Shown: positions 10,400 through 58,192 of the stretch, in pieces | Layout: the number at the start of each line of letters is the position of its first letter | Position numbering within the stretch: position 1 is the first letter of the stretch | Assembly: GCA_951406725.2 (NCBI GenBank) | Contig: OX597816.1 | Coordinates: forward strand, 36,580,001 to 36,644,000 | Direction: 5' to 3' | Length of the DNA: 64,000 bases | Origin: Octopus vulgaris | Taxonomy: Eukaryota | Position numbers and translations under genes: made by a program | The notes under the pieces: generated by a model | Database searches by the model: none | Seen by the model: only the letters and a program-made list of their open reading frames with translations | Told to the model about the DNA's origin: nothing

Positions 10400-10828
10400 T
10401 CCTAGAAATCTGGACACCTTTTCCACATCTCCTTAATGGAAAACTGGAAAAGATACCTAGATGATCGTTTCATCATATGGAAAGAATCTCATGAAAATCT
10501 TCTGGAATTCAAAACCACGCTTAACAACATACATCCCAACATTCAATTCACTATGGGAGTCAGCAAACATCATCTCCCTATTCTTGATCTCCTAATTATA
10601 AAAGCACCTCACAACCAAATCAAAACCAACATCTACCACATACCTACAAACTCACAATACTCACAAACTCACAAACTTCCTTTCATGCCACCGAAAACAC
10701 ACCAAGATAAATATCCACTTCAACTTAGTTAAAAGGATTTGCATCATTGTCTCGGACCCAACCATTCGAGAAGTAAGCCTTCAAGACCTCAAAAAAACAA
10801 TATTACAAGGCCAATATCCCTACACAAT
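10400..10828 (+). mobile_element. Penelope-like element RT C-terminal fragment (pseudogenised)
   Basis: WKRYLDDRFIIW..FKTTLNNIHPNIQFTM..LPILDLLI..TNIYHIPTNSQ, then frameshifted SCH.KHTKINIHFNL..RICIIVSD; homologous to 57044-58130. Confidence 0.85.
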
Positions 10829-11462
10829 ATCCCTAGGAAGCATCGAACGCCTCCTGATAGCTTTGACACGGTGTCCCTAGATGCAGTTCCGGCGGCCGGG
10901 GGTGTTTGTCTCCCCTTCGTATATGTATATAAGGACACATGGAAAAAATGTGTCAAAGCTATCAGGAGGCGTTCGATGCTTCCTAGAGCTATACAGCGGT
11001 GGTGTACCCCCTACTGTCACTTTCTTGTTAGATTGACAGTATGCAACCATTCTATCGCCCCACCACCGTACATGTCTCTACGAGAGATTTAGAAATTCAA
11101 TACTTCTTATTTTGATAATCAGTGAATAAACTTCACTGAATATAGGTATATACAATTACGAAGTCGAGGCAAATATCACCAGCTGACCGGTGTCTGCTAC
11201 TCTAGGCCGATGAAAGACAACGATCCTGAAACACAGTGTCCCTAGATGCTGTTCCGGCGGCCGGGGGTGTTTGTCTCCCCTTCGTAGGGGAAAATGTGTC
11301 AAAGCTATCAGGAGGCGTTCGATGTTTCCTAGGGCTATACAGCGGTGGTGTACCCCCTACTGTCACGTTCTTGTTAGATTGACAGTATACAACCATTCTA
11401 TCGCCCCACCACCGTACATGTCTCTACGAGAGATTTAGAAATTCAATATTTCTTATATATAT
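10829..11462 (+). mobile_element. Retrozyme-like cassette A: about 1.6 tandem copies of a 345-365 nt monomer with a short inverted 5' piece
   Basis: gtgtccctagatgc at 10871 recurs at 11236; 10829-10869 is the reverse complement of an internal segment; 3' end runs into (TA)n; contains an HHR. Confidence 0.8.
11201..11246 (+). ncRNA. Type I hammerhead ribozyme, variant core CCGAUGA
   Basis: tctagg-CCGATGA-aagacaacgatcct-GAAA-cacagtg-TC-cctaga; stem I perfect 6 bp and extends to a rod over 11157-11286; GUC cleavage triplet; stem II imperfect. Confidence 0.75.
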
Positions 11463-13957
11463 ATACCTAGTGAAACTACTAATATTGAAGTATTAAAAGT
11501 GAAATATAAGTGTATTAAGTCTATAAAATTGTGCATAAAGTATATAAAAAGTAGATGTAAACTGCATTAAGTATTCCAATTTCATTCACTGTTCAATGAG
11601 TAACAGATGATCGACTATTTTCCATACTGACAGAACAAACGCTATGCTTTCAGATTATTTGCATAAAGTTTTCAGAAATAACCCAATAGGTTTACCATTA
11701 ATTTCGTGAAATAGTCACGGCTCCCTCTAGTATATATAAATGTGTGTGTGTGTGTGTGTGAATATAGATTCCTTCTGTTTGTTCTTCAACTTTGCATTAG
11801 AAAGTATTCACTGCTACATAAATTCTGATGTATCCTTGCCATTGTTTCTACACACAACAATCCTAGCCAGCTTCAACTAGACTGATACAACAATTTTGAC
11901 TTGCATGCCTTAACTATTTGCCAACCGATTCATTATATATATGTTTCCTCCTTTGCTTATACTACACTTATATTTTTGGTTCCTATAGACTATCTATATG
12001 CATACTGCATACATATATTTACAGTACAGATTGCACATTATCTCCTAATTATCCCTATAATATGTTAGTTCGCAATAGTTCAATATGCCTCACGCGAACC
12101 TGAACCACTCTACTAACGCTCTTCCCTTGCACACGTTCCCAACTTTTCAAGCTGAATAATGAAAGCATCAATTTTTGAAAATCCATTTATAGTTCATTTT
12201 AATTTTACTCAAATAACAAATAACCTTTATTGCGGAAGTGAATGCTCTATTAGGACTTGTTTATCAGAGATACGCTATTTCTGGCCATATCCTGCAGACA
12301 GAGACAGTTGAAAGAACACTGAGTTTTCGAAACATTCCCTCATTTTGTTTTTAATATCAACATATCCAAGACTTTCGAACAATGTCATTGTTTAACAATT
12401 AATGGATCGAAATATGCATCTATGTATCATACTTACTTTAGAGATCTGTATGCATACAGCGGTGGTAAGTCAGTTGCAGTAATTCCTTTGTGCTTGCATT
12501 TCGTTACCGATGTTTCTGCAACTGAGTATTGAGTAGACGGAGAATGAGTAAATGTTTCTATGACAATCCACTACCCGCTATCTTGTGTAGACGCAATGCG
12601 GATATTGTAACCGGCTGGAAATAAGCTCTAATGAGCATAGAAAAAAGGGCGAATAGAATGGATTTCTATCAAGGTCTTAAAACCAGAAATCTGTGCCGCA
12701 CACAACCCTGAATTATGTTTCTCTTTGAATGAATTAATACATTGTCGTAAAGGGGAGTCTTACTTGTATAAACAGCAACAAGGTACTAGTCCAATATACG
12801 TAAACTGAAAGAAGCTCACAGTAGGGTGTCTGATCTTGAAACTTTTAATTGTAGACAATGTCAAATATGTTGATGTGTGAAATGAAAAATAAAACGTTTG
12901 CTAATCATCTCGAGTGGGACATACAATTTATTTGTGGATAACAGAGAAGAGAAGATCCTCGAATTATTTGCGTTTGGAAATAAGTAATCGCAGCTGAAGA
13001 TAGAGAGACACTCAAGAATTAATGTAAATCCATTTTTATATTAACGTGAGATTAGGAATATAGATCAATATATATCAGGTTTAGAGAGTTTGTCTCAGTT
13101 TAGAGTGGTAGAAATAACTGACTTGAAGTAATATCGTGCATACATGTATACAATCAATGTACCATACGTTGTCGAACAAATTTAAAATTACTGTTGTTCA
13201 GATATCTCGGAAAAGAGTGAATGTATCATTCTACCATGTGAATTATCCAAAAGCGCACCTCTTAAGAAATTGTAGAGAGTATGAAATTGATGACCTACAT
13301 GTTTTAATGCATCAAAATCCTTGCGGAATTTCATGATATATGCATCTATAATACTAAATTATTTTAAAACGTAACACTTCAATTACCTTGAATTGTGTTG
13401 AAAGATTTTCAGGTAAAGTGAAAGGGTGCTTATTATACAATCTTTTAGAAGTCAAGAAGCTAGTTTCATACCCTGTACATACATATAGATAGATTGGTAG
13501 ATAAGTAGGTAGGCAGGTAGGTAGGTAGCGAACTAGCTAGCGAAGCAGGTAGTTAGGTAAGTAGATATTTAGATAGATAAGACAGACAAACGGACGGGTG
13601 GTTGGATGGATGGATGGATGGATGGGTAGATGGGTGGATGGATTGATACATTTCCAAAGTGATTTATTTGACTTAATTTCCGAAGAAGCCATGTAATAAA
13701 TTAGTACATCTTGAAAAATTCAAGCTGTGTCTTAAAAGCGGCTGCATTTAAAATCGATATCAGAACAGCAAGGTTTTAATTCTGTGTCAAGTAACACTTC
13801 TAATAAATCAATTAGCCTAGTCAAGTTTTACTCAAGATAATTTCTCTGTTTTTCACTTGTATACATCGTGAAACTCGCATTGTATTGATAGGATTACATT
13901 CAGAATTCACGTAAACAATACATGGCCTGTGACCATAAGAGAAAGTCTATATGAGAG

Positions 13958-14412
13958 AAGGCGGCGAGCTGGCAGAAACGTTACCACGCCGGGCGAAATG
14001 CGTAGCCGTATTTCGTTTGCTGTTACGTTCTGAGTTCAAATTCCGCCGAGGTCGACTATACCTTTCATTGTTTCGGGGTAGATAAATTAAGTACCAGTTA
14101 CGCACTGGGGTCGATATAATCGACTTAATCCGTCTGTCTATCCTTGTTTGTCCGCTCTGTGTTTAGCCCCTTGTGGGTAGTAAAGAAATAAAAATAGAAA
14201 CGTTAGCACACCGGACGAAATGCGTTGCGGTATTTCGTCTGTCGTTACGTTCTGCGTTCAAATTCCGACGAGGTCGACTTTGCCTTTCATCCTTTCGGGG
14301 TCGATAAATTAAGTACCAGTTACGCACTGGGGTCGATGTAATCAGCTATATCCCTTTGTATGTCCTTGTTTGTCCCCTCTATGTTTATCCCCTTGTGGGC
14401 AATAAAGAAATA
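13958..14412 (+). mobile_element. Dimeric SINE with target-site duplication
   Basis: Two head-to-tail units; flanks agaaagtctatatgagaga / agaaagtccgtatgagaga. Confidence 0.92.
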
Positions 14413-14704
14413 AGAAAGTCCGTATGAGAGATCACATACGGTGTTACTAAAATGAATTGTCCTAATGAGTAAAGAATCTAAAGCTGATATTGTTCCATTG
14501 AACCATTAACCGTTTCTGATAGTCTAGATAACGTTTCTCCCTTCGTCGATGTTGATGCGGAGGGGGATGGTGAGCATTACTAATTGCAGCATTCACGTGG
14601 AGTTCTCTATGAACAGTTAATACGGGGTTGGTTAAGGTGGTGGTTGAACTCTGCCGATACTCCTGCTGTTGGAGTTCGATGGGTTTTTTTATCTTTTATC
14701 TTTT

Positions 14705-15496: not shown

Positions 15497-15893
15497 ATAC
15501 TGATATGTGGGGAAATACGCATACATACGTATGAGAACATGTTTATCTATGTATCTCTTCCTCCAGAGATATGTGTGTGTAAATACAGAACACACATACA
15601 CTCATACATATATGTATCTATGTATCTATGTATCTATGTATCTATGTATGTATGTATGTATGTATATATGTATGTATGCATATATATATATACTAATATA
15701 TTTATATATACACGAAGGCACGACATGAGCACCTAAAAATAGAAGATAAAAATTCTTCTGCACCACAGTATTATATTTGTGAACATTCTGTGCTACAGAA
15801 GTACTTTTGACCTCTATTTTTAGCGATGTAGGTGCCCATGTGCTGCCTTCGGGTGTATATGTATACATACAAATAAGTAGATATCTTATGTTT

Positions 15894-15895
<2 letters not shown>

Positions 15896-15932
<37 letters not shown>

Positions 15933-16004
15933 TTATATATCTTTTGTTGTGTATCTATATATATATATATACATACACACAGGCACACACACACATACAC
16001 ACAC

Positions 16005-16089: not shown

Positions 16090-16090
<1 letters not shown>

Positions 16091-17775: not shown

Positions 17776-17824
<49 letters not shown>

Positions 17825-18690: not shown

Positions 18691-18925
18691 TGTATAAATG
18701 ATTGTGGGTAAGGCCAAAACAATACGAAGTAAATGCAAGGTAAATCACAAGAAAACAAATATGTGAATCATACAACTTACGTTGTATTTAATTTCTTGAA
18801 AATGGGTTCGTAACCCCGAAATATCGAATACAAAGTAAGTCTACATTAATTCACATATTTGTTTTCTTGTGATTTACCTTGCATTTACTTCGCATTGTTT
18901 TGGCCTTACCCACGATTGTTATATA
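18691..18925 (+). mobile_element. Mini PLE pseudo-LTR remnant with inverted tail and a hammerhead
   Basis: About 65-bp inverted arms 18704-18768 / 18849-18913 around an HHR-like core; both ends in (TA)n. Confidence 0.65.
18775..18840 (+). ncRNA. Minimal type I hammerhead, U3-A8 variant
   Basis: ttc-TTGAAAA-tgggttcgtaacccc-GAAA-ta-TC-gaa; distal stem acttac..ttgtatt / aatacaa..gtaagt. Confidence 0.55.
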
Positions 18926-20059: not shown

Positions 20060-23000
20060 GATATTGGCGTCCGTGGTTCGCTTTCAACAGCAAGAGCAGC
20101 AACAACAGCTGCTACAGCAGCAGCAACAGCAACCACAATAGCAACAACAACACAACCAACACTCACTGGAATTAATGTTGAAGGAGTCTGAAAATACTTC
20201 AGGTTCCTACTCGCCAGGCAGCGTAGCAAATTCCATAGAATTCAGCTAATATCCAGAAGTGATTACATTCACCACATATTTTCGACGATACCAAGAAATC
20301 TTCGAAAAAGGGGTTAAAAGTTTGTCCAACGAGAGAAAAGTACGACTACTTTTAGAAAGTTATCTCCTGCCGAACGCGAAAAGTACAGTAACTATATTCT
20401 GCCGAAGGAATTGGGTGAAATTTCTTTAGATGAAACAATTTTTTATCGAAAATTTTCAGTGAAAGTATCTCCTTGTTTAATGTTTAAATCTGGTCAAAAA
20501 ATGATGATGAATATTTTGTCACATACGCCGGAGTGGTTAACAAAGAACCTATGATACTCAAATGAGTTGACGTTTTCAAGTGTTTAATTTTTGTTCAAGG
20601 GTTTGCTGTAAGCAAAGATACAGATATACGTTCCCGGATATTAGCAAAATTAAAACAGGACCAAAATTTAACTCTGCAGGCAGTAGCAGAAGTTTGTCAG
20701 AGGATTATAATTCCATGACGCAGATAAACTTGAAGAGAAAGATTGCTCTCCTGTTCAAGCGTGTCGACCGGTAACGAACAAATATATAGAGAAAAATGCC
20801 AGGACCGAATTCATATTATGGGCGCGGTCGTCTACATTTTAAAAATAAATGTCCGTTTAAAAATATGAAATGCTTGAAGTGTGGTAAAATAGGCCATAAA
20901 AAGGTGCATAATAGGACATCCTAAAGTGCGGTTCAGTAGAAACGATCAAGTAAAGGGGTTATCGGTGACAAAAATATGAATGAGTCTGAAAGGAAATTTG
21001 TGATGTAGATGTTAATAACACAAACGTAAAATGACATTTGAATACATGAAGTGACATCTCGATAATTAGCAGAGATATATGGATAGAAATCTAGAGATCT
21101 AAATTATAAGAAACTTCGAAAATTGCCGGTGCTGTTGCAGGAAAAAATATTATATTTTAAGGATGAATTGATAAGACACATTACATTTCGAGGAAAAAAC
21201 CTTAAAAGCCAAAGTTTTTCTGTTGAACGATACGACAAATTCATTCGGAACACACTGGATGGAATTATCTAACTTATGAGACCTCTCCATGAACATGAAT
21301 CTTTTCTGAAAAATGTGAATGGCTTTTTCGACAGTACAAATAATTCGTAAGACGAATTGAAACAATTTTTGCAAAATTTTTCCTGGTAAGTTATGTTTGT
21401 GCACCAAAACGAAGGAGAAGTTTCAAATAAAAGAAAACGTAATACCGACATTTAAACAAAAACGAAATGTACCGTTCACAGCGTTAGAACAGATAAACTT
21501 AGCGTTAGAGATGAGAAAAAATGGAATATAGTCGATGGGCAGCACCACCTGTGTACGTTAAGAAAAAGAATAATATAATTAGACTGTGTGGAGATTTTTC
21601 CACTGGTTGAAACGAATGTCTTCAAACGTGCCACTATCCGCCAACTACTACAGACTATATCGTCGCAAAATTAATCAGCGGCAATATTTTTTTCTAAATT
21701 AAGGCGGTGAGCTGGGAGAAACGTTAGCACGCCGGGCGAAAAGTTTAGCGGTATTTCGTGTCTTTACGTTGTAAGTTCAAATTCCGTCGAGGTCGACTTT
21801 GTCTTTCATCCTTTCGGGGTCGATAAATCAAGTACCATTTGCGTACTGAGGTCAGTCTGATCGACTGGCCACCTCCCCCAAAATTTCGGGCCTTGTGCCT
21901 AGAGTAGTTAGAATATATTTTCTAAGTTGGATCTCTTTGACGGGTACCTACAAATTAGAGGATGAATGCTTTATATACCTAACGGTGTACACACATAAAG
22001 AAATGTATAAATACAACTGGTTACCATTTCGCTTAAAAGGCGCACCAGCTATTTTTCAACAGATTATGGATGCAATGTTAGCGGACAGTGAATTCGCAAT
22101 TCCATATCTGGATGAAATACTCATTAAAAGCGAATCCAGTGTCCAACACGTAGAGCACGTAAAATATGTGTCCGATAATATTAGCGATTGCGGCTTTACT
22201 TTGTGTGAAGAAAGGTGTAAATTTTTCTCACTGAAAATAAGATATTTAGGACAATTCATTGACAGAAATGGACGTCGACCAGATCTGTCGAGGGCAAACT
22301 CAATTAAAAATTTGCCCCCTGCGACAAATACTGCAACGGTACAAACTTTTGTGGGGCTGGCAAATTACAAGCAAAATTATATTCCACATATGCATAAGTT
22401 GGTGGTTCCACTGAATAATCTGTTGAAAAGAATGTGAGCTGGAACTGGTCGGAAAATGATCAAAAGGCGTTTGACGAAATTAAGAAAAATATTAACATCA
22501 GATATAGGGTATAGGATCAGTATTTCTACATAAATATAGAGATGGTAATATGACGGCGTTGCTTCATGCCTCACGTTCTATGATATCTGCAGAAAAAAAG
22601 TTACAGCCAATCGAAAAGAGGCTCTAACGATTATTTTTGTCATAAAAAATTTAATTCACAAAGTTTTACACGGTAAAAAAATTACAGGGTTTTCGACTAC
22701 ATCGTCTGTTATTATTGAGATATGTTTCGAAGAAAGGAATCCTACACATACAACTAATAGGGTACGACTTTATTAAACAATGATTTTAAGATGGAGTGTA
22801 TAGCACCCACGAAATTAGGTCACGTTGATTGTTTATCAAGACTGATTTTTAAAAATGTTGAACCAGTTGAAGATGCCGTGATTGCTGCTTTGCGAGCAGA
22901 AAATAAAATTACAAATGTTTTGTGTAACATAATACCTGAACTGCCAGTTCTTTTACAAGACATAAATAAAAATCGGCGAACGGTAATTCATTAAAAAACT

Positions 23001-29600: not shown

Positions 29601-29618
29601 ATTCCAGCCAGTAATCTG

Positions 29619-29635
29619 AATAATAATAATAATAA

Positions 29636-29710
<75 letters not shown>
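29619..29710. repeat. (TAA)n(TAG)n microsatellite
   Basis: Direct inspection. Confidence 0.95.
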
Positions 29711-42615: not shown

Positions 42616-43400
42616 ATAAATACCATATAAAATTAAAATATATGTATCAAATATTAAATGAAAAAAATAAAAATACCTATGGAAATGTGATTATAAGATT
42701 TTTCTGATATACATTAAATACACTATTCTAGGTAGAATAACAGATCCTTGGTGTTATACCTTATACTTAGTGGAGGTGCAAGGTTTAGTAATCCATTGAA
42801 AATTTATTTGTTATACTAACTAGGAAGGAGGAGAATTCGAATACTGAAGGGGAAAATATATAATATAATTATTGGAAGATTACAGATCAAAAGGATTAAG
42901 GTTTATTAGAAAGCAATACTACATAGATCTGGAGATAATAGAGGGTATATTATGAAAGATACAACACCCTGGATAACTCGTGCTAGCAAATCATACTATG
43001 ATATACTTATAACCTGCTTCTGAAGTATTTAAAATTACAGGCAATTCTATGAACACATGATCGTCTAATTTATTATTAACTAGGTTTTCCTTATCTCTAT
43101 ATTTGAATAATGCATATATCTTCATACAACATAGTTGCTATCCATAAGCCATACACAAATAGCCGGTATGAATTCTTTCCCCGCATAGTTAGTATAATAC
43201 ATTTATTTACAACAGATTACTAAGTCTTGCGCCTTCCCTAAGTATAACAGATAATCCCTAGGATCTGTAATTATGCTACATAGATCAGTGTATTTGATGA
43301 ATTTTAGAAATATATTATAAACACATTTACATAGGTATTTTTATTTATATTTTTTCAATAGATATTTAATACATCTATTATTTTATATGGTCTTTATAAT
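42614..43400. repeat. Long diverged inverted repeat (arms about 235 bp), MITE/foldback-like
   Basis: 42614-42846 aligns to the reverse complement of 43163-43400. Confidence 0.7.
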
Positions 43401-44839: not shown

Positions 44840-44844
<5 letters not shown>

Positions 44845-44890
<46 letters not shown>

Positions 44891-44943
44891 GTATATATGT
44901 ATATGTATATATGTATATGTATATATATGTATATGTATATATG

Positions 44944-44992
<49 letters not shown>

Positions 44993-45045
44993 GTATATGT
45001 ATATATATATATATGTATATATATATGTGTGTATATATATATATA
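44845..45045. repeat. (TA)n/(TATG)n microsatellite
   Basis: Direct inspection. Confidence 0.95.
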
Positions 45046-45179
45046 TATTTATTTATATATAGAGGGCATTATTATACATACATGCCACACGCTAAGAGGG
45101 ACAACATTAGTCATTTCTACCAAAAAGTTTACTAATCCCACCGAATGCAATTTTTCAAAGTAAGACATTTAAAAATATG

Positions 45180-45226
45180 GACTTGTATCACCTGTGATTT
45201 CATACCTCTGTATTCATCAGCAAGCC
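45180..45226 (-). ncRNA. Canonical type I hammerhead ribozyme
   Basis: Minus strand ggcttg-CTGATGA-atac agag gtat-GAAA-tcac ag gtga-TA-caagtc; all three stems pair; AUA cleavage site. Confidence 0.9.
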
Positions 45227-45639
45227 TGGACGTATCATAAATAAACGACCCTACCTCGTCTAAGCCGAGCAGCTAACTGATCAACATCAACGAAGCACAT
45301 GGGTGAGTTTACATATATTACATCCGGTAAATGGCAGACTTTTACGAATTGCATTTCGGGAAAGGAAAAGTTTTTTCGGAATAAAAATTTAGCAATTAAG
45401 GACAACTTCTTAATAAGGAAAACTTAACAAGAAATTATCGGGTAGATAGCGTGAAAGACCTCATAAGAGAAAAAAATTTCGAAAATAATTCTTTCTTATT
45501 GAACATATTAATTTATATATAGAGGGCATTATTATACATACATGCCACACGCTAAGAGGGACAAAATTAGTCATTTCTACCAAAAGTTTTACTAATCCCA
45601 CCGAATGCAATTTTTCAAAGTAAGACATTTAAAAATATG

Positions 45640-45686
45640 GACTTGTATCACCTGTGATTTCATACCTCTGTATTCATCAGCAAGCC
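45640..45686 (-). ncRNA. Canonical type I hammerhead ribozyme (second copy)
   Basis: Identical to 45180-45226, 460 nt upstream on the minus strand. Confidence 0.9.
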
Positions 45687-47910
45687 TGGACGTATCATAA
45701 ATAAACGACCCTGCCTCGTCTATATATATATATATATAACCTCTGATATATTTGCGTAGTTTATATAGCTTATAAATGGTTCCTAATCTCTCGCATAAAA
45801 TTCTGTATAATACAATATTATATTTTATATTTATAGTTACACATATTTTATATTTATAGTTACACATTTTAAATATTTGTGTATCTATATTTGACATCTT
45901 TATACATTTGTATATCTTTTTATATACTTTCCAAGTGTTTGTAAGTTATAATTTTTTTATAAGGTCTTTTTATATAATTTACTGGATATGGGAATCCATA
46001 TTCTAGCATATTTTTAATAATGCATTATTCATTAAATGCTTACATGCCCAAATATATATATATCCGCATGAACATTAAGTGCTAGATTTATCCTATCAAC
46101 GTTAATGCATCATTCAACCTGCTGCTTGGATTTACTTGAGATTATAAGTAAGCATTTACACCTTCACGGAAATACGAATAAACACCATACCCTCCGAATT
46201 AACATGAACTATGAACCTTATACTTGTATCTACTTTCAATTTTCTGTCTAGAACATCCCTGCACACCCCTGTTGTCTCTGACGGAATACTCAGTGCATGG
46301 AGATGTCGATAAACATATTGAAACATATCGCCGTAATGTGTTAACCACCATGTTTGAGCAAGGAAATCATTATTAAATTCCAAGTTAGCTCAAACAATCG
46401 GGTGGATTTGAGCTGATATTTTTTGTATCATATTTTTTTCACATGTTTACTATGTTGAGTCGGTTCTAATGGTCAGCGTTGATAGCGACGGATGATCGAG
46501 CATCAGTATTATCATCAGTGTATCCGTTTTGACCGTCTACGTAATTACAAGGAAAAGGAGTACCGACGTAGATTCATTAAATATATTTCAATCATATTCA
46601 CATATATACGCACAGTATATATGTGAATATACACGGAAGCGAATAATATACGCACTAGTATGTTTACTTACAAGCAAGTATAAACTCTCATACAAATATG
46701 TATGTATATATTTATGTAGGCATCTGTAGGAACCATGACAGAAAAGAATTTAACTATCTTTATTAGAAGACGTAAAAATGTAAAATGCATTCCGCTGAAT
46801 CTACTGATGACAACATTTCGAAATTAAAGTCTGATTCCAGTGATACAATGCTATCTCATTATTTCATCTAACTTCAATTACAGCGCAGATATACGTTTCC
46901 TGCTCTGTTACAGGTAATAGATTTTCTGATATATTGTATCTCATTTCGAATGTAAAATACATATTAAACAGGGCTTGTTATTGATTCTGTCATAATGTAT
47001 TACATATCGGTATCTCGCTAGGAGTTAACAATGCGCAAATATTCTCTGGCGTCAGTTATGGAATATCCATGAACATGCTCGGTGACATAGACGACGTAAT
47101 TATTCAATGCTTTGCTCTCACTCTCACGTTTTGCTGAACTGAATAGACACTAGGTTTAACATAGACATAACTGAAGATATCCTTGAAATCAAGATTCATT
47201 TCCTTGTCCTGTTGTGTTACTGCCAGTTTCAATTTAATTCCCAATACAGAATCCTTAGCTTGGACAAACCTGATTCAAAAAGCACAGTATAATTTTTAGA
47301 AATCAATGTCGAATAGAAAACTGGCTCCCGTCGGGAAAATACCCGGCAATATTTGCTTGCAGCCTCTTTATCTTTTTGAGCATACATACAGCACGGATAC
47401 ACGTTGCGTTTAATCCTTTTCAAATCCATACAATTAGAACAGATCAGATTAATGAAACATGGATTAGCGTTATCGACTATACCCTAAAGAAATATCTTTT
47501 ATGAGAAGGAGACTGTGACGATTAAAGTGATCAGATGAATGCGCAGGTTTAGTAAAAATTATTTAAAATTTTCAAAGATCATAATGAAGATAGAATCATT
47601 TTGTCCTTTCAAAATCTAATTTTATTCTATTTTAAAAGAAAAGTGGGACGGAGCAATAGAGTAGATTAGGATTTCTCAGGGTTTTATAACAAGTAAAACA
47701 GAGGCCGTTTCATCATAACCAATATCTAATAAGACCATGCAAATGGGATTGAAAACAATTAAATAAAATAACTAAGTCGTGTTTAATAGTAAGTTTTACG
47801 GTGATTGAACATGTTAATCACGTTGAATTTCGACAGATAGTGAACGTAATCACATTTTACGATTTCAGTCATAAAACGTAACCTTAATCTCACGATAGGT
47901 TAGTGAGGTG

Positions 47911-48292
47911 AAAGGCGGCGAGCTGGCAGAATCGTTAGCACGTCGAGCGAAGTGCTTAGCAGTATTTCGTCTGCCGTTACGTTTCATCCTTTCGAGGTCG
48001 ATTAAATAAGTACCAGTTACGCACTGGGGTCGATATAATCGACTTAATCCGTTTGTCTGTCCTTGTTTGCCCTCTCTGTGTTTAGCCCCTTGTGGGCAAT
48101 AAAGAAATAGGTATTTTGTCTGCCGCTACGTTCTGAGTTCAAATACGCCGAGGTCGACTTTGCCTTTCATCCTTTCGGGGTCGATTAAATAAGTACCAGT
48201 TACGCACTAGGGTCGATATAATCGACTTAATCCGTTTGTCCTTGTTTGTTCTCTCTGTGTAGCCCCTTGTGGGCAGTAAAGAAATAAAGAAA
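47911..48292 (+). mobile_element. Dimeric SINE with target-site duplication
   Basis: Flanks ataggttagtgaggtga / ataggttagtgaagtga. Confidence 0.92.
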
Positions 48293-48426
48293 TAGGTTAG
48301 TGAAGTGATATGAATGGACAGGAATTGATTCTTTACTAATCACAGCTGCCCTACAGCAAATGAACGTATTCTATACAAATCCCTAACATCATTTTCATTC
48401 AGAATATATGCATTATAATATCACTT

Positions 48427-48636
48427 TCAAATTTTGGCAGAAGGCCAGAAATATGGGGAAGCGATTACTCGATTACATTGACTCCAGTATTAAACTTTTA
48501 TGTATTTTATTCACCCTGACAGTTTGAAAAGCAAAGCTGAGACCTTGCTGGCATTTGAACTGAGGAGGTAAAGTCGGAAGAAATACAGCTACGTATTTTA
48601 TCCGGTGCGGTATCGATTGCGCCAGTTCACCACCTC
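48427..48636 (-). mobile_element. Degenerate SINE
   Basis: ttcaaattttggcagaaggcc...gcatttgaactgagg...gccagttcaccacct. Confidence 0.7.
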
Positions 48637-48804
48637 ATCTAAATATTATAATGTTGAACATTTCTGTTCAATAAACAATTATAATGATTTGGTATATATA
48701 TATATATTTTAAAATGTGTAGAGGTAACACACGAGTTAGTAGATATTTATGAAAAAGAAAAACGAAAATGCTTTCTTTCAATTGGGTACATTTTAATTTC
48801 CCAT

Positions 48805-49208
48805 TTAAAGAAGAATGTTTTTGTTTTGTTTTACATGTTTCAGTTTTTGGAAAACTGTATCGAAAATATGTACTAAAATAGAATATATAGAGAGAAAAGA
48901 GTACCAATACAATTAAATTAAAATTAAGATTAACATTCATAGTTGACCTTACTTTTTTCTACAAGAGCACGTGGTAATTTCCGTTAATTTTCGTGACATG
49001 ACAAGTTGAACTGTCTGTGACCGCAAATTACTACTTACTTGTAGAAAAACAGGAAAATAAACTATGAATGTTAATCTGAATTTTAATTTTAATTTTATTT
49101 TATCAATAGCTCTTTTCTCTCTACATATACTATTTTAGCACGTATTTTTGATAAGTTTTTTTCAAAAACCGAAACGAGTAAAACAAAGCCAAAACATACT
49201 TAATTTAG
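48805..49208. repeat. About 400-bp palindromic MITE-like element
   Basis: Left arm 48805-48980 is the reverse complement of 49025-49208 (e.g. agattaacattcatagtt / aactatgaatgttaatct). Confidence 0.8.
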
Positions 49209-49624
49209 AGTATTTATATAAAGGAAAATTAATATATATGTATATAGCATATATCTGTCGTTGCACGGACTATATCATATATAATTTGGAGATTTTTTAT
49301 GTTAATCACCCTGAAAATATTCCCACTTTTGAACTACCTGAGAAGTCAGGTAGTCATAGAAATATGAATTTTAATAATTTCCCAATATCGATTCCTATAT
49401 TTCAATAATCCTCGAATATTATCTTATAATAGACATTTATGATGTCTACGTTATCGACCTTCTATGTCTTTGCTAATAACTCTTAGCAATCTTTATAATC
49501 ACATTTTATTCGGATGTCTTCCGTCCACTAATGATTTCAGACGATGATACCTTATCCTGCCCAGTCGCGAACCATGTTTCAGGCACTTGTCCACTAACGT
49601 CGTTCACTAAAATTGGTGTCTATA

Positions 49625-49855
49625 TCTTATTTCTTTATTGCCCTCAAGGGGCTAATCATAGAGGGGACAAAGAAGGACAGACAAACGGATTAAGTCGATT
49701 GCATCGACCCCAGTGCGTAACTGATACTTAATTTATCGACCCCGAAAGGATGAAAGGCAAAGTCGACCTCGGCAGAATTTGAACTCACAACGTAACGACA
49801 GACGAAATACCACTAAGCATTTCTCCCGGCATGCTAACGTTTCTGCCAGCTCGCC
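49625..49855 (-). mobile_element. SINE with target-site duplication
   Basis: Full reverse-complement consensus; flanks tgtctatatct. Confidence 0.92.
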
Positions 49856-51659
49856 TGATGTCTATATCTAGTGATGATAAATATATTAACCAGGAATATG
49901 TCTTGAGTCACACATATATGTAGATATTTATAAATGTAATCATACGCGTTTGAAGTTCTCCAGTAAGAACTAAAATAATTCTTAAATAAATAATCTATTC
50001 ATACGAAACAATATCAATTGCCCTTGAAGCTACTACTCATATCTCAGGATTCAGGAGCATGTACCTCAAGGGTAGGATAGCAGCACACCTACACTTGCAA
50101 AATCTGTACATTTGTTAATCAATATAAATTTTTTTATCCATATCTTTTGCATTGACAATTTCCCTCCATACGCTTATGAATTTTATTTTTTATGTAACAT
50201 AAGCAAGGGATCACAGCTTCTCCATTATCGAAACAACAGCTAAATCACCATACTATTTCAAATTGGAAGAATGTATTAAAGTGTAACGTAGGTATATTAT
50301 GTCAGAAAAACATGAATAGAGTAGTTTCGACTGGATTACCTTATATCATAGGTTCGCTAATCAGAAAGAAATCTCAGTAAAGCATTATTGAAGTACTCGT
50401 TACATGCAGACAACTTGTAGTAGTTTTTTTTAAATTCTGTCTGGACCTAAATTGTTTAGCGTTAATGCAAATTAGGACGTTACATGAATATTTTGAAGGT
50501 CAGATTTTGTAATTACTTGTCTGGAAAATCTTCTTAGCCGACTCGACACCATATAAAAAAAAAAGACTTTTATTTAGGGTACCGCAAATTGCTAAACAAC
50601 ATATTCGCCAAGTAATCCTCTTAACTCAGAGCTACGAATTTATCTACCCACACATTAACTTACTATGCGGTGACATGCGTGATGTTTTCAAATTATCCCA
50701 CCCTCTGACATAAGGTTTTTTTATAAATATATCATCTCATTATATTTTAAATAATGTTGGTTAAATTTCTTTAGTTTCGTATATTCCAACACTGCTGAGC
50801 TAATTGCGCAAAATGTATAAGCATTAACAATGTCCTGCACTCTACAATCTCTCAGTCGAAGCACTTATACTTTATAAAGTTTTCCTTCCATCTTTATACT
50901 GTAACCAAAAATCTGTATATTTCTTCCTTCGTGAGTTCATAGATAATTGTATTTTATTTTGACAAATTCACGATATACAAATTTTTGGTGCATGAGAAAC
51001 GTTTGTAACAATGAAAGGTAGTAATTTTCAGACGCCCGTAATTTCCTTTTACTTTGATTTAATGTTGCATTTCTTGATTATTCTATTTTTCATTCACATT
51101 TACAATGGACGTCGAATTATTATTTGCGTCTAAACTAAAGTGTTTTCTTTTTTTTCCCCCTTTTTTCTCTTAATTTTTGTTCATCAGTTTATTTTTCTAT
51201 TTTGAGTTACTTACAGAATATAATTTTCTTTCTTTTTTTATATGTTACACTATTTTACTGTCCATTCCAGCACTTCCCCCATGTACATTATATTGACAGA
51301 TAAATATGAGACATGTTTGATTTATCATTTGTTGACGAGATTCATTATTTACACGTAGACTTTCTCCGTGTATTATCTTTGTATATCAATCATGATATTG
51401 ATGTTCTTTGTTCTGTGTGAGATGATTTTTATGCGTGCATTTTTTTTTTAGTTTCTTTAATGTATTTTGTTATCAGGCTCGGCAATGTCATTTTTCACTA
51501 ACACTATTTGCGATATATTTATTTGTATGATATCCTAATACATAATCTGTTGACAGTTTGTGACTCACGAGTGAAAGATATCCAATGTTTTATCCTGATA
51601 TTTTGTTTGTTCATTTTTTGTGAATGTGAAGGTGATGCAGGATTTTTTTTTATGTTGTT

Positions 51660-52122
51660 AGCAGAGAAAATATTAGTATGTAGTATTGTTAACAGAGATA
51701 ATATTAAGATTTGGTGTTGTTATTTGCGAAAACGTTAGGATTTGGTAATAGTTGTAGAGAACAGGTTAGTATTCGTTAGTAGTAACGAAGTAAACAGCAT
51801 CTGATATTGGTTGTACAGCAGATATTAGTAGTTGGTATTTGTACTATCAAAGAGGCTCGTATTTGATAATGGTAATAGCGAAGTGTACACTATTTGATAT
51901 CGTCTGAAGAGAACAGCAAAACATTTGGCGTTGGTAGTAAAGATATTAGCATTTGTTTGTGGTGGTGAAGCGATTAGTACCAAGTATTGTTTATAGAAGG
52001 AAAAGATAGTACTTGATATTGGTAGCAGTAAAGAGGTTAATACTTGTCGTTGGAGAAGGTGAGTAAGTTAGTATTTAGTACTGGTATTTAGTACTGGTAC
52101 TAAAAATACTAGTACTTGGTAT
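51660..52122. repeat. Degenerate ~30-bp minisatellite
   Basis: Recurring tag(t/c)atttgatattggtagtagcgaagagg-like units. Confidence 0.5.
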
Positions 52123-54187
52123 CAGAAATTATTTTGTGATCCTCCTATACCGGAGGAACATGTGCATCACTATCAATATACTGTCTTTCTCTTTGAAGAG
52201 AAGGTTGAGTATAACTCTGGTTTAGAGCTACGATCAACTTAAATCAACAATGTCAGTTATTACTACTGCTAAAACTACGGCTGATGTCCCTGACATCTTC
52301 AATTGTTTGAATGTTCTTTTATATAACATTATTCCTAAAAATCTCGTGGCTTTTCTCTACTTTTCTTCGCATTGAATTATAGCTTCCAATATAGTAGAGA
52401 CTAAGCGAATTTTGTGGCTGACTTTATGTCACATATTCAGATTAGTTTAATCCATTATATAGCACTATTCCTCTAAATCGATCATTTATGTTCTTACGGT
52501 TTTTATTAACTGCCTGCATAGACTGATCTTGTTTTCTATATTGCAATGACTTGGATGGCTTATGGACTTTGTGTTGTATTTTCCATAAATATTGCCCCTC
52601 AATACTTATAAAAGTAGTATGGTGTTAAAATATATTCTGTAATGAATTAATCACATGCATCGACAGTTTCACTCTCTCTGCATTCTATTAATTGATTTTT
52701 CAGTTCATAGAGATATTCCTTCTAATCGCTATCGCTTATTTTCTTCTCTGTTGGCTTACCGAAAATCACAATCAGAAATGGAAAATCAGAGTGACACATC
52801 TCGGTTAGAAAAGAAGCCTAGATTAATAACAGTTAGTTGCCTGAAGAAAGAAATACAGGTGTGCTGATGGGGTCATACTGTGGGCCATTATCAGAGGATA
52901 ATGGAAAGGATCCGCTCAGCGACAACACATTCCTTGGTTTCAATTGAAGAGCATTTCACTTTGAATGGCTGTGAATAACGGTAGAGAAGAGTAGATGTGG
53001 TATTTTTCGAAGGCATTTAGGTGGAGTTGCTTGACAAAAACTGGCTGGGAATTTAGAAAATTTGGAGCAGGATTGATTCTATCATCATTGTGATGATTCT
53101 ATGAAGTCGACGGAATTAAATGACAAAAAGGATTTGGTGACAAAAATGCAAAATGTATACAAGAATCAGCTGAAGCAATCTGTGTAATGCAAGGACGTTT
53201 CCTTAGGGCTTCGGATGATGTTTTAGTTGAAAATATTTAAGAATCATGAGCGGGGACATATATATATATGTTTCTGAGTTTATATATTTAAATATACACG
53301 TATGTGTCTCATCGCTCTGATATCAGCAGATACCTGGTCGATTAGACGAGCGCATTTGTGCCTAGGATATTCTGAGTAATAAATGTGTGAGTAATTAACT
53401 TTTTGCCTAGAAACATATATTTGGTATAAATGTTCAGAGCTCTTTCATTTACTTTGTACTCATCCTTCTGCATTGAAATATAAAAATGTAGTAACACATT
53501 TCTAAGTTGTTTGGGGGTATTTTCTGTCGACCAGTCGGGATAATGTATCGTAAATGATTTGAAATTTTATGAATTAGTGGCAACTGAATCAGATTTTGGA
53601 CGGATTGTCTAGTAGGAACGATTGGATCTTAAAATCAAGATGTTCAGTAAACTACAGTTCTACCGCTGTGTCATGTAATTATTACATCCTCAGATTTAAA
53701 TATAACTAGCATTTCCTGATGCGGAAATATAGACGAATATTCAAACGTACCCATTTTGTAAACCATGTATACACTCTGGTCACCATTTCAGCTTGAGGAA
53801 AAAATTTAACACCTGATAATACTGAGTACTATTATGTTGAGTTCAAATATTTTCATCTTTCCGGGGTGGGGGGTACAGAAACAAACTACCAGTTAAGCGC
53901 TAGTCAATACCATCGAATAATCCGCTTCCTCCAGAATTGCTGGCATTATATCTCAATTAAAAAAAACAAAAACTATATATTCCCTTTCGGTTAAAGAGTA
54001 TCAGTATACATCCTTCAAGGCAAGGCCAATAATAATAGGAGGGTACGATTATTTACTAGTACTTCATATTATCGACCCCAAAAGTATAAAAGGCAAAACT
54101 AACCTGAACATTATCTAAACTGAAAGGGTATTTACCCGATTCTTTAAGCTGTGCCAACACCCTTCCAGAATTCGCAAATTCCTTTAT

Positions 54188-54236
<49 letters not shown>

Positions 54237-54264
54237 CATATATATATATATAATAAAAAATAAT

Positions 54265-54516
54265 AAATGCACCCTTTTAAAGCCTAGCCAGGCTCATGGG
54301 CCCGGTCTCCCGGTTTCTATGGCATATGTGTTCCCCAGCTGGACGGGACGCCAGTCCATCGCGGCGTAACTCACTTTTGCCAGCTGAGTGGACTGGAGTA
54401 ACGTGAAATGAAGTAATTTGCTCATGAACATAACGCATCGCCTGGTCCAGGAATCGAAACCACAATCTTTCGATTATGATGCTGACACCCTAACCACTAA
54501 GTCACGCGCCCCCACC
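54265..54516 (-). mobile_element. tRNA-derived SINE, second family
   Basis: Minus-strand head gcgcgtgacttagtggttagggtg...ggtttcgattcctggacc (A/B boxes); core tccagtccactcagctggcaaaa. Confidence 0.85.
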
Positions 54517-54533
54517 TCTTTTATAAATATGTT

Positions 54534-54564
<31 letters not shown>

Positions 54565-54741
54565 ATAAATAATTAAAAGGGCGGGCAACATATACATATG
54601 TATGTATGTATATAAATTGGAAGGTTTGGAGATGATGTAGAGGTATCATATATTAGAAGAAATGAGGTACTCAGAAGATCGGATGGGTTATATTTACAGA
54701 TATTTATTTATGTATTACATTTTTTATATATATATCATATC

Positions 54742-54797
54742 ACTTAGATCATTACCGCTTTCTCCCATTCTAGTGGGGTTTTCAAATCCAACTAAGT
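54742..54797 (-). ncRNA. Degenerate minimal hammerhead (U3-A8 core) in the PLE tail
   Basis: Minus strand acttagttggat-TTGAAAA-ccccactagaatggga-GAAA-gcgg-TA-atgatctaagt. Confidence 0.45.
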
Positions 54798-55404
54798 TCC
54801 TGTGTGTGGAATTTTGATCATTTTATAGAGTTTCGTAGTGGTGGGGAGGAATATAAAACAGTACAAGAGGATTATGCGTGAGGAGAAAGTGAGAGAGAGA
54901 ACATGTGTGTATGTGTGTGTGTGTGTGTGTTTGTATCTGGGGTGAGTGCTAAAGAGAAAGAGGGGAAGGGAGAGGGAAGAAGAAGGAAAGAATTTTTTGG
55001 GTCTGCTGGACAGAATATTGACTCCAAGGGGGTTCTAAGGCCTTAGGAAAAAAAAGAAGTTCAGCTTTGGCCACTTCACAGTGTCACTGAGTGTGTGGTG
55101 GCGGGGAGGCAGGCCATAAATTATACTTCCTTTTATCATTGTGAGAACGGTCAAATGCTTTTTTGGGTTTAAGAATTCTTTCCACTTTTTATGTGGAGGT
55201 GTGTGTGTGTCTATGTGCGAGTGTCTGTGTATGTGTGTGTGTGTGTGTGTCCGTGTGCGTTTGTGTGTGTGTGTGCGTGTGTGCGTGTGTGCGTGTGTGT
55301 GTGCGTGCGTGTGAGTGTGTCTGTGCGTTTGGAGAAGGGAAGAGAGAAAAAAAAGAAAAAGAAAAATAAGGGAGGAAGAGGAAAAAATTGTGTTGATATT
55401 TATA

Positions 55405-55889
55405 CCACTATATATATATACATGCTTATACATGAAATATTAGGAAAAAAAACACATTGTTAACAAAATGAACAACTAAATTGCACCATCTTGAAAATTG
55501 TATATCATAGGGAAGTTAAAATTAAAGTGACGATTAAAAAGTAAAGATGAAGTAAATTACAAAAATGATATAATGTATATAACAGGTAATATATATATAC
55601 ACACACACATATATATATATACATATACACACATATACTAAATGTTCTACTATATTAAATTGTAAATCGAAAGATGTGTCCTTCAATGTCACTATATATC
55701 TATACATGCTTATGCATGAAATATTAGAAAATAAACACCTTTTATCGATTCACAATGAACAGTCAAATTACACCATCTTGAAAATTGCATATCATAGGAA
55801 GGTTAAAATTAAAATGATAATTGGCAAGTAAATATTAAGTAAATTACAAAAATAATATAATGTATATAACAGGTAATATATATATATAT

Positions 55890-55927
<38 letters not shown>
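55405..55927. repeat. Diverged ~285-bp tandem duplication in the PLE 3' tail; the second unit is completed at 56933-57028
   Basis: cactatata..catgcttat..aacaggtaatatata at 55407 and 55690; atactaaatgttctac..ccttcaatgt at 55635 and 56974. Confidence 0.8.
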
Positions 55928-55930
<3 letters not shown>

Positions 55931-56099
55931 ACATAAGGGACTAAAGCCATCTGAATATGGCTAGGGACAGGGCAGGGTGGTGGGGGTGTTACTGTTGCAT
56001 TTAGCCCCAGGCGAACATCGACGTCACCAGAAAGGCTCGACACCGTCACGGTGCCCTAAACCTGCAAAGGGAGGTAATTCCCCGATGAAGCGGAAACCA

Positions 56100-56145
56100 C
56101 ACACGGACCATGGTTTCAAGGTGTATTGCCTATCATCGGCGTGTG
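56100..56145 (-). ncRNA. Type I hammerhead, CCGAUGA variant
   Basis: cacacg-CCGATGA-taggcaatacacctt-GAAA-ccatgg-TC-cgtgtg; extended stem I spans 56061-56184. Confidence 0.8.
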
Positions 56146-56459
56146 GTAGGCCTCCGCTTCCTCGACGAATTCTCACTCTGCAGGATTTTCTTATATAGAT
56201 TTTCAAGCAAAATACATTTGCTGATTTCGAAAATCTGTTCGAAAGCAATAATAATTCTCTAAAAGGGATATAGACAGTAACTGCTCGATAACATAAGGGA
56301 CTAAAGCCATCTGAATATGGCTAGGGACAGGGCAGGGTGGTGGGGGTGTTACTGTTGCATTTAGCCCCAGGCGAACATCGACGTCACCAGAAAGGCTCGA
56401 CACCGTCACGGTGCCCTAAACCTGCAAAGGGAGGTAATTCCCCGATGAAGCGGAAACCA

Positions 56460-56505
56460 CACACGGACCATGGTTTCAAGGTGTATTGCCTATCATCGGC
56501 GTGTG
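56460..56505 (-). ncRNA. Type I hammerhead, CCGAUGA variant (copy 2)
   Basis: Identical core, 360 nt from copy 1. Confidence 0.8.
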
Positions 56506-56670
56506 GTAGGCCTCCGCTTCCTCGACTAATTCTCACTCTGCAGGATTTTCTTATATAGATTTTCAAGCAAAATACATTTGCTGTTTCGAAATCAGCAAAT
56601 GTATTTTGCTTGAAAATCTATATAAGAAAATCCTGCAGAGTGAGAATTCGTCGAGGAAGCGGAGGCCTAC

Positions 56671-56716
56671 CACACGCCGATGATAGGCAATACACCTTGA
56701 AACCATGGTCCGTGTG
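56671..56716 (+). ncRNA. Type I hammerhead, CCGAUGA variant (inverted copy)
   Basis: Same motif read directly on the + strand; rod spans 56632-56755. Confidence 0.8.
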
Positions 56717-56931
56717 TGGTTTCCGCTTCATCGGGGAATTACCTCCCTTTGCAGGTTTAGGGCACCGTGACGGTGTCGAGCCTTTCTGGTGACGTCGATG
56801 TTCGCCTGGGGCTAAATGCAACAGTAACACCCCCACCACCCTGCCCTGTCCCTAGCCATATTCAGATGGCTTTAGTCCCTTATGTTATCGAGCAGTTACT
56901 GTCTATATCCCTTTTAGAGAAATTATTATTG

Positions 56932-56976
<45 letters not shown>

Positions 56977-57043
56977 CTAAATGTTCTACTATATTATATT
57001 GTAAATCGAAAGATTTGTCCTTCAATGTATGATGAGTAAAATT

Positions 57044-58130
57044 TCAGCCATTTAATTTGGGGAAGAACTTAGCTATGAAACATTTTTCCATATTCCTCCC
57101 GAAAGAAGTGTCGTTCTTCGGACATTTGTAGAAGGGAAAGATCTTAAATTTTTCTTTCTCCACACGTAGCTAGGTGTGTACTTAGTGGTATTTTGCGTAG
57201 TTCTTCCTGCCGAATATGTTGTCGGTGAATCCTGGCTCGCTGGCACAAAGAATTAGCAGTTTCACCTACGTAATTCTCCTTGTATGTGGGGCAGGTTATG
57301 CAGTATATAACGTTCTGCGTCTTGCAGTTCATACCTGCATTTACTTTGAATACGTAACCACTTTTAAATCTCATCTCTCTGTTTCCCTCTATGTATTTGT
57401 AGGTGGGGTTGCTGCAGATCCCACATCTACCATCTCCGCACTCTTTTGCCAAGAATTCCGTTTTAGTTTCTGAAGAGAATTTCGCTCTTGTTAGATGTTT
57501 CTTTAGGTTTTTGTCCTGTCGTCTACTGTTTTTTATGCTATATTTGTTTAATATGTTTTTCATTTTGGGGCTTTGTAAGGCTATTGGTAGGTTTGAATGT
57601 ATGGTTTGGAAGATGTTGGTAACTCCAGGGTTGTGCGTGTTTATAAAAGGGATAATGTTTTCTTTGTTTTTTGTTTTGGGTGTCCTGAGTTGTGCGATGT
57701 CTAGTTTTAATGCTCTTGTGATTCCATTTTCTATTAGTTTAAGGGAGTATTTTTGCTCTAGGAGCAAGTTTTTGAGTTCATCTAGTCTTATTAGTCGTGT
57801 TTGTGAATCAGTTACTATGCTACATATTCGTCTTGCCATACTATATGGGATGTTTCTTTTTTTGTGGGATGGGTGGCAGGAATGGAAATTTAAATATTGT
57901 TGTGCGTCAGTTTTTTTTTTTGTAGTGGATGTCTGTTGTGACGATGGAGTTGTGTATTTTGATGTTGATGTCTAGGAAGGGAAGTTCGTTGTGGCTGGTA
58001 TCTATTGTGACGTTGATAGATGGGTGCATCGTTTTGAGGATGTTGTGGAATGTTCGTAGATCTTCTTCTGATCTGTTTCAAAAGATGAGGCAGTCATCGA
58101 GGTAGCGTTTCCACTTTTTCTTGATGTCTC
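57044..58130 (-). pseudogene. PLE reverse transcriptase C-terminus plus GIY-YIG endonuclease (frameshifted)
   Basis: KWKRYLDDCLIF, LPFLDI, YLNFHSCHPSHKKRNIPYSMARRICSIV, Cys linker CGDGRCGIC, NVIYCITC..YVGET...R..H; ends FPFYK..EKCFIAKFFPKLNG*; ORF-track entry 57144-57839 is the intact middle. Confidence 0.92.
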
Positions 58131-58192
58131 CTCTGAAGTCGTGTTCGAAGACTTTCCCAATTTCATCGCATATACGAATGTATATATATATA

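What the first reader, a model, noticed from the sequence alone, without database searches (positions are those of the whole stretch)
10400..58180. Window-scale pattern: PLE enzymes plus several HHR passengers that all end in (TA)n
Seen: at least nine HHR motifs from about six sequence families in 64 kb, plus two PLE RT remnants. Four HHR-bearing inserts (10.8k, 18.7k, 45.0k, 55.9k) have 3' ends fused to (TA)n, three have inverted 5' segments, and none shows a clear TSD, unlike the SINEs here. Inference: an autonomous PLE / non-autonomous retrozyme system that primes at, or extends, TA microsatellites and may contribute to the microsatellite load of this genome.
Basis: inference. Interest (0 to 1): 0.75.

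Follow-up and report, generated by a model that had tools for sequence, protein, structure and literature searches.

The report
Penelope-copied ribozyme repeats in TA microsatellites
Three short non-coding repeats that carry a hammerhead-ribozyme motif, and the ends of two Penelope-type jumping genes, sit inside TA microsatellites across this animal genome; they were likely pasted into TA runs that already existed by a Penelope-type enzyme, which is a known kind of system with unusually regular ends.

Summary
Partly confirmed; a known kind of system.

Count: the window holds 7 complete type I hammerhead (HHR) motifs from 4 families, not 9 from 6.

What they are: three families (10.8k, 45k, 55.9k) are ORF-less tandem units of 363, 460 and 360 nt, i.e. 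retrozyme-like. The 18.7k insert is no passenger; it is the 3' end of a second PLE and lacks the HHR core.

TA link: real genome-wide. Ends at (TA)n: 35/42, 39/44, 43/54, 26/37, and 23/23 for the young Neptune-like PLE, against 5.1% of random positions. It is not general: the 29.7k HHR family has 0/26, and SINEs abut about as many TA arrays.

Mechanism: each family stops at two fixed points (the PLE 'tail'); head-to-head inserts pair one short with one long end (47/49). The TA pre-exists and hides target duplications. Filled arrays are longer than expected, so some net TA gain is plausible; TA synthesis by the enzyme is unproven.

Open: partner enzyme, cleavage, RNA circles. PLE targeting of (TA)n (also in Octopus), the two start sites and the retrozyme-PLE link are in print, and this scan noted the pattern before elsewhere in this genome.

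The parts
10415..10856 (+). Broken PLE reverse-transcriptase remnant (YLDD and thumb), joined without a TA spacer to the family A insert
   Evidence: tblastn 43-45% to aa 412-555 of the intact 775-aa ORF
10824..10877 (-). Short inverted arm of family A
   Evidence: unit 74-115 inverted
10866..11456 (+). Family A retrozyme-like repeat, 1.6 units of 363 nt; type I HHR core at 11207; ends at the long (L) site, then (TA)6 at 11454-11465
18691..18925 (.). Family D: head-to-head pair of 3' ends of a second endonuclease-bearing PLE, in TA on both sides; HHR-like stems without the catalytic core (about 18792-18835)
   Evidence: GIY-YIG-like frame upstream in L198
29561..29895 (+). Family E: tRNA-like head, (AAT)n/(AGT)n run, minimal HHR (core 29774), fixed 3' ends; not TA-targeted genome-wide although this copy ends in (TA)6
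45044..45722 (-). Family B retrozyme-like repeat, 1.5 units of 460 nt, HHR cores 45680 and 45220; single arm with TA on both sides (44845-45047, 45721-45738)
55400..55904 (-). 3' UTR of the Neptune-like PLE (about 290-nt duplication) with an internal TA/TG run that received the family C insert; the duplicate, unfilled run has (TA)6
55931..56932 (.). Family C retrozyme-like repeat (360-nt unit, 98-100% identical copies): minus arm 55931-56586 ending at the short (S) site, plus arm 56591-56932 ending at the L site; HHR cores 56139, 56499, 56677; TA on both sides
56973..58176 (-). 5'-truncated Neptune-like PLE: RT core end and thumb, Cys-x4-Cys-x2-Cys linker, GIY-YIG endonuclease, start of 3' UTR; frameshifted
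58181..58347 (.). TA array at the truncated 5' end of the PLE

Best explanation
Three ORF-less hammerhead repeats (360-460 nt units) and the ends of two Penelope-like elements lie in (TA)n arrays with two fixed 3' end points each, and were likely inserted by a PLE reverse transcriptase-endonuclease into TA runs that already existed.

SHOWN: fixed short (S) and long (L) ends; TA fusion; S+L pairing of head-to-head arms; arms of one insert more alike than copies at other loci; 1-4 nt of TA-like overlap at the junctions; insertion into runs that are part of other repeats; target duplications where they can be seen.

INFERRED: a GIY-YIG endonuclease with a zinc-finger linker nicks both strands of a long (TA)n. 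A protein dimer bound to one RNA (uncleaved multimer or ligated circle) starts cDNA from each nick, one at S and one at L, helped by a few paired bases. Both cDNAs run through the HHR site for one to many units and are joined 5' to 5'. The stretch between the nicks is duplicated, so each event splits an array and adds some TA; the halves may then regrow by slippage. The HHR would serve to make unit-length or circular RNA, not to target TA. The young Neptune-like family is one candidate enzyme; Naiad and Hydra elements are others.
For: Terminal ends with TA within 16 nt: A 35/42 (29 loci), B 39/44 (29), C 43/54 (30 loci, 27 distinct), D 26/37 (30), PLE 23/23 (20); random 5.1%; one SINE family 0/12.

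Fixed ends in unit coordinates from the HHR cut: A 179/234, C 178/222, B about 141/258-265, PLE about 35-40 nt apart. Simple two-arm inserts that are S+L: A 15/15, B 8/9, C 16/17, E 8/8, PLE 4/4, D 10/13; 47/49 for A+B+C+E, p 9e-4 under a conservative null of 0.79. Opposite arms differ by 2.5/1.4/0.34% against 5.3/3.2/0.82% between loci (A/B/C). Overlap with the TA run: 3 nt in 13 (A-S), 12 (A-L) and 21 (C-S) ends, 1 nt in 20 C-L ends.

Pre-existing target: units A and C hold no (TA)n; ends also join TC, AAT and TG runs (L021, L050, L303); four inserts lie in the internal microsatellite of a SINE that has 53 unfilled copies in the sample; 4 of 7 single-arm C inserts have TA at the 5' side too.

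Duplications: about 7-13 nt by eye in 4 of 7 multi-hit E loci, and an AAG interruption on both sides of C insert L052, about 36 nt. Intact PLE frames in many near-identical copies. Literature: two RT start sites equal the tail, both strands are cut and extended, dimer predicted (PMC11167929); (TA)n preference of PLEs (PMC8557442).
Against: No call ties a passenger to a given enzyme: no significant shared sequence with the Neptune-like element beyond one AT-rich 22-mer in B, and only 2 of 30 A loci and none of the B or C loci are fused to PLE sequence without a TA spacer. That PLE has no HHR. Frangieh et al. found priming without homology to the cut DNA for a Poseidon element, unlike the short overlaps here, which in AT-rich units could partly be chance (no null computed). 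Queries for A, B, C and E contained the tail and returned only best matches, so end counts favour young copies with an L end. D has 3 S+S pairs, B and C one L+L each. 9-30% of ends in A-D are not TA-fused. Within-arm divergence in C (0.84%) is not lower than between loci. Filled arrays are longer than splitting alone predicts (see rival 1).
Confidence: 0.8

Rival explanations
1. The telomerase-related RT adds TA itself: it repeatedly copies the UAU at the start site onto the nicked target before entering the unit, so insertions lengthen or create the arrays.
For: TAT/ATA lies at most start sites. In 15 two-arm C inserts the shorter TA side is under 20 nt in 1, against 55-86% expected from splitting background arrays; the total is 70 nt or more in 12, against 14-59% expected. 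All 4 filled SINE-internal sites have 45 nt or more of TA against 2 of 53 unfilled.
Against: Junctions to TC, AAT and TG runs; one visible duplication of about 36 nt. A preference for long runs, duplication and later slippage explain the lengths without new chemistry. The C long end shares only 1 nt with TA and is still TA-fused in 23/29. Background runs are older and more interrupted.
Confidence: 0.12
2. A, B and C are not independent passengers but the terminal repeats (pLTRs) of unseen full-length PLEs, left as truncated ends, as family D is.
For: D proved to be so; PLE pLTRs carry type I HHRs (PMC4209133); retrozymes derive from pLTRs (10.64898/2026.07.22.740005).
Against: Units repeat head to tail with themselves (C about 14 times at one locus). 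The longest stop-free frame is 62-98 aa. No PLE frame is contiguous with B or C in 30 and 31 loci, searched with one PLE protein only.
Confidence: 0.1
3. The TA association is background: the genome has about one (TA)6+ run per kb, and TA runs arise at any repeat end.
For: 967 runs per Mb; the 150-nt HHR test is not significant and 8/18 HHRs have TA within 250 nt upstream too; SINEs abut about 106 of 663 arrays.
Against: Base-exact fusion at two fixed sites in 70-100% of ends against 5.1%; family E, with the same two-end layout, has 0/26.
Confidence: 0.02

Closest known systems
Metazoan non-LTR retrozymes (Cervera & de la Pena 2020, PMC7229834, passages; Li, Clavereau & Pollet 2026, 10.64898/2026.07.22.740005, parts 1-3 of 5)
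   Same: Tandem non-coding units of a few hundred nt with one type I HHR each (mussel units 350-390 bp); proposed to be non-autonomous PLE derivatives.
   Different: The parts read give no TA targeting, fixed ends or head-to-head arms for retrozymes. Here the passengers carry the PLE tail footprint directly. Circles and cleavage are untested here.
TA-targeting PLE clades Naiad, Hydra, Neptune (Craig et al. 2021, PMC8557442; passages, section 3, supplement rows)
   Same: Microsatellite bias, TSDs hidden by it, partial tandems, inverted 5' copy, 30-40 bp tail often at one end only, putative non-autonomous partners in Chlamys. Naiad_Obim, Naiad_Ovul (comment 'HHR_half_core') and Hydra-1_Obim are listed with (TA)n preference in Octopus.
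   Different: The active element here has a C-terminal endonuclease with linker and CCHH motifs (Neptune/Nematis-like), a frameshift-linked ORF1 and no HHR found. The S+L pairing is counted here (47/49) where the paper describes it in words.
Poseidon PAc in vitro (Frangieh et al. 2024, PMC11167929, parts 1-2 of 4)
   Same: Two internal RT start sites that define the tail; both strands cut and extended; AT-rich targets; HHR cleavage not needed for insertion; dimer predicted.
   Different: PAc primes without homology and with no strand difference reported. Here junctions share 1-4 nt with (TA)n, and the two strands nearly always use different sites.
Sm-alpha/Sj-alpha SINE-like elements with hammerhead (PMC2770079, passages)
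   Same: Family E (29.7k) likewise joins a tRNA-like head to an HHR.
   Different: E shows PLE-type two ends, inverted arms and 7-13 nt duplications; its tRNA origin is by eye only.

Membership tests
Non-LTR retrozyme (A, B, C) | Type I HHR in each unit | tested here: met
   A and C carry a C at core position 4 in most copies
Non-LTR retrozyme (A, B, C) | Short tandem unit of a few hundred nt, dimers to multimers | tested here: met
   363, 460, 360 nt
Non-LTR retrozyme (A, B, C) | No protein coding | tested here: met
   longest stop-free frame 67, 62, 98 aa in trimers
Non-LTR retrozyme (A, B, C) | Self-cleavage and circular RNA | not testable with these tools
   needs in-vitro transcription and stranded RNA reads
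Non-LTR retrozyme (D, 18.7k) | HHR with catalytic core, no linked ORF | tested here: not met
   core absent; endonuclease frame upstream
Neptune/Nematis-type EN+ PLE (57-58k family) | RT followed by C-terminal GIY-YIG | tested here: met
   Pfam RVT_1 and GIY-YIG on L160
Neptune/Nematis-type EN+ PLE (57-58k family) | CX2-5CxxC linker and CCHH zinc finger | tested here: met
   read from the translation, against the motif text of PMC8557442
Neptune/Nematis-type EN+ PLE (57-58k family) | pLTR, partial tandems, inverted copies, tail | tested here: met
Neptune/Nematis-type EN+ PLE (57-58k family) | HHR in the pLTR | tested here: not met
   relaxed scan of the whole element, both strands, found none; hence called Neptune-like only
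Neptune/Nematis-type EN+ PLE (57-58k family) | RT phylogeny within the clade | not tested
Sm-alpha-like SINE with HHR (E) | tRNA-derived Pol III head | tested here: inconclusive
   A/B-box-like motifs by eye (box patterns recalled); ARAGORN 0 genes in 6 loci

The most novel reading that the evidence does not exclude
A dimeric, telomerase-related PLE enzyme copies one circular ribozyme RNA from two fixed start points onto both strands of a nicked (TA)n at once, and adds TA at each event (by reiterative copying of the UAU at the start sites, beyond plain duplication). PLEs and their retrozymes would then be an active engine of TA microsatellite growth in this genome.
Probability: 0.15. Interest if true: 0.72.

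Novelty: new member of a known kind. Interest (0 to 1): 0.36.

Why it matters
How PLEs make tandem and inverted insertions and why they favour microsatellites is named as open in PMC8557442, and how retrozymes are mobilised is named as open in the 2026 preprint. This genome has a very young intact PLE and a very young passenger with base-exact start sites and a near-strict short+long rule, so an in-vitro test has clear predictions. Family E (same layout, no TA) and family D (TA, no HHR core) show that ribozyme and TA targeting are separable. The parts themselves are known.

Tried and rejected
Empty orthologous sites: the run search listed 24 runs, all as contigs; no RNA holder listed. Four runs laid on 43500-59500 were swamped by repeat copies and gave no usable empty allele. 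Neither result counts as evidence.

Rfam: only microsatellite-driven miRNA-type matches, no hammerhead family.

Other HHR candidates: 24659, 38967, 43125 (relaxed hits at about chance level) and 25051, 46804, 48560 and the 58.4k repeat did not pass the scan and have no match in the HHR library.

Sequence link between passengers and the Neptune-like PLE: none significant. One search timed out and was rewritten. In one search the family B tally (24/50) was distorted by a TA-like stretch inside the unit and was redone. The loci for D were biased to inverted pairs, so a pattern search was used for the counts. Nesting of C next to PLE copies (window, L165) was rejected as proof of partnership, because a shared target explains it. 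No fold or complex job was run.
Full report
SETTING. The window is G000:C3:36580001-36644000 of a 2.8-Gb animal genome. It looks octopus-like from its SINEs; that label is recalled, is also used in earlier scan notes, and was not tested. TA runs are dense: 967 runs of (TA)6+ in 100 evenly spaced 10-kb stretches.

OBSERVATION. My descriptor finds 7 complete type I HHR motifs in 4 loci; shuffles give 0.1-0.26 per window. A 139-member HHR library adds only a 3' half at 10866. Rfam gave no hammerhead match, and RNAfold favours the fold for two of the five motifs folded, so the motifs rest on core, stems and recurrence in genome copies, not on activity. Both PLE remnants are real. The four named inserts are TA-fused and three have inverted parts.

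WHAT THE PARTS ARE. A (10.8k), B (45k) and C (55.9k) are tandem units of 363, 460 and 360 nt with one HHR each and no long frame. First-look candidates number 2182, 1800 and 777; these are not copy numbers. C copies are 98-100% identical and reach about 14 units at one locus. D (18.7k) is the 3' end of a second PLE: longer copies lead upstream into a GIY-YIG-like frame (L198; L183 carries the same upstream sequence), and the HHR core is missing. The 57-58k remnant belongs to a family with many intact 775-aa RT-endonuclease frames. It has the Cys linker and CCHH motifs of Neptune/Nematis, an upstream 557-codon frame, and no HHR that I could find.

TA TEST. Unbiased census: 18 HHRs at least 420 nt from stretch ends (shuffles 0-1). 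(TA)5+ lies downstream within 150, 250 and 400 nt in 4, 12 and 12 of 18, against 13%, 18% and 25% of random points (p 0.2, 8e-6, 2e-4); upstream 5, 8, 12. Family ends with TA within 16 nt: A 35/42, B 39/44, C 43/54, D 26/37, PLE 23/23, E 0/26, one SINE family 0/12; random 5.1%. The window's own copies were left out. Loci were the best 19-30 matches per family, or for D the first 30 of 95 exact pattern hits, so they favour young copies.

TWO FIXED ENDS. Ends cluster at two unit positions, far from the HHR cut: A 179/234, C 178/222, B about 141/258-265, and about 35-40 nt apart in the PLE. Simple head-to-head inserts carry one of each: A 15/15, B 8/9, C 16/17, E 8/8, PLE 4/4, D 10/13; single-arm and complex loci were not counted as pairs. 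Because queries selected for one long end, I used a null of 0.79: 47/49, p 9e-4. Opposite arms of one insert are about half as divergent as copies at different loci, which fits one RNA source per event. Of 12 C head-to-head joints, 8 overlap by 1-8 nt, 2 are blunt and 2 have extra bases.

PRIMES AT OR EXTENDS? The arrays pre-exist. Units A and C contain no (TA)n; single ends join TC, AAT or TG runs; four inserts (2 PLE, 2 C) sit in a SINE's internal microsatellite, seen unfilled 53 times with a median TA run of 13 nt; and the window's C insert sits in a run whose duplicate 290 nt away has (TA)6. Duplications are hidden, not absent: about 7-13 nt in 4 of 7 multi-hit E loci and about 36 nt in C locus L052; the other C flanks shown gave at most one further short candidate. 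Against pure splitting: filled arrays are long on both sides (shorter side under 20 nt in 1/15 against 55-86% simulated; all 4 SINE-internal cases 45 nt or more against 2/53). Long-run preference, duplication and slippage can explain this; synthesis by the RT is not excluded.

MICROSATELLITE LOAD. Of 663 compound arrays, 251 share a junction-anchored flank with another array (random points 33 and 47 of 663). By a rough classification about 106 abut SINEs, 12 abut HHR- or PLE-supported families, 95 unclassified repeats (some are PLE ends) and 53 low-complexity sequence; an array can fall in two classes. PLE-type ends thus touch 2-16% of arrays in this sample, rare families being missed, and SINEs a similar share.

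MECHANISM. See Best explanation. The nicking, dimer, circle and partner steps are inferred from PMC11167929 and PMC8557442, not shown. Two of 30 A loci (the window's and L002) join PLE-like sequence without a TA spacer; this hints at template switching but does not name the enzyme.

LITERATURE SEEN. PMC8557442: passages, section 3, first two supplement hits per term from a file cut when stored; figures not seen. 10.64898/2026.07.22.740005: parts 1-3 of 5; supplements not seen, and they may list more on flanks. PMC11167929: parts 1-2 of 4. Passages only: PMC7229834, PMC3846280 (tail on one of the inverted pLTRs), PMC4209133, PMC2770079, PMC12602865. Searches showed no paper on cephalopod retrozymes with TA-fused, paired ends; the library lacks most subscription journals. 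The scan's notes list 251 fitting entries in this genome, several with the same reading; these are not independent support.

VERDICT. Real and well supported as a TA-targeted PLE system with retrozyme-like passengers; smaller and more mixed than first read; new members of known kinds. Interest 0.36.

Noticed in passing
L160:1696-5603 (also L151-L169): Full-length copies of the young PLE have a 557-codon ORF1 overlapping the RT-endonuclease frame in the -1 frame, with a T TTT TTA slippery heptamer in the overlap (13 of 20 loci carry the site; 2 of them lack one base after it). No stable downstream hairpin (z -0.07). The Fig. 1 legend of PMC8557442 allows a frameshifted ORF1; the clade it refers to was not seen.
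   Followed up: partly
window 29561-29895; L322-L340: Family E: tRNA-like head, (AAT)n run and minimal HHR with PLE-type two ends, inverted arms and visible duplications, not TA-targeted; a candidate PLE-moved, Sm-alpha-like SINE (4075 first-look candidates). No earlier scan note matched it by sequence.
   Followed up: partly
window 18792-18835; L171-L200: Family D spread widely with an HHR-like fold whose catalytic core is missing, in line with cleavage not being needed for insertion.
   Followed up: partly
L201-L300: One SINE family carries an internal TA/TG microsatellite (53 unfilled copies in 1 Mb) that is itself a target for PLEs and family C; 18 SINE 5' ends and 11 3' ends also abut TA arrays.
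   Followed up: partly
L002:1982-2084; window 10824: Family A arm joined head-to-head to PLE-like UTR sequence (4-nt gap), and in the window to an RT remnant with no spacer: possible template-switch chimeras.
   Followed up: partly
all loci fetched: At least 16 recurring HHR sequence clusters, several with long stem II.
   Followed up: no
window 21850-22437(+), 34865-37094(-): Other RT remnants (RVT_1 hits); by their look LTR-type and RTE/LINE-type, labels recalled.
   Followed up: no
window 58347-58585, 15631-15939, 48811-49201, 42613-43400: A TA-bounded repeat end with an HHR-like but non-passing motif (58.4k), and three imperfect inverted repeats of unknown kind.
   Followed up: no
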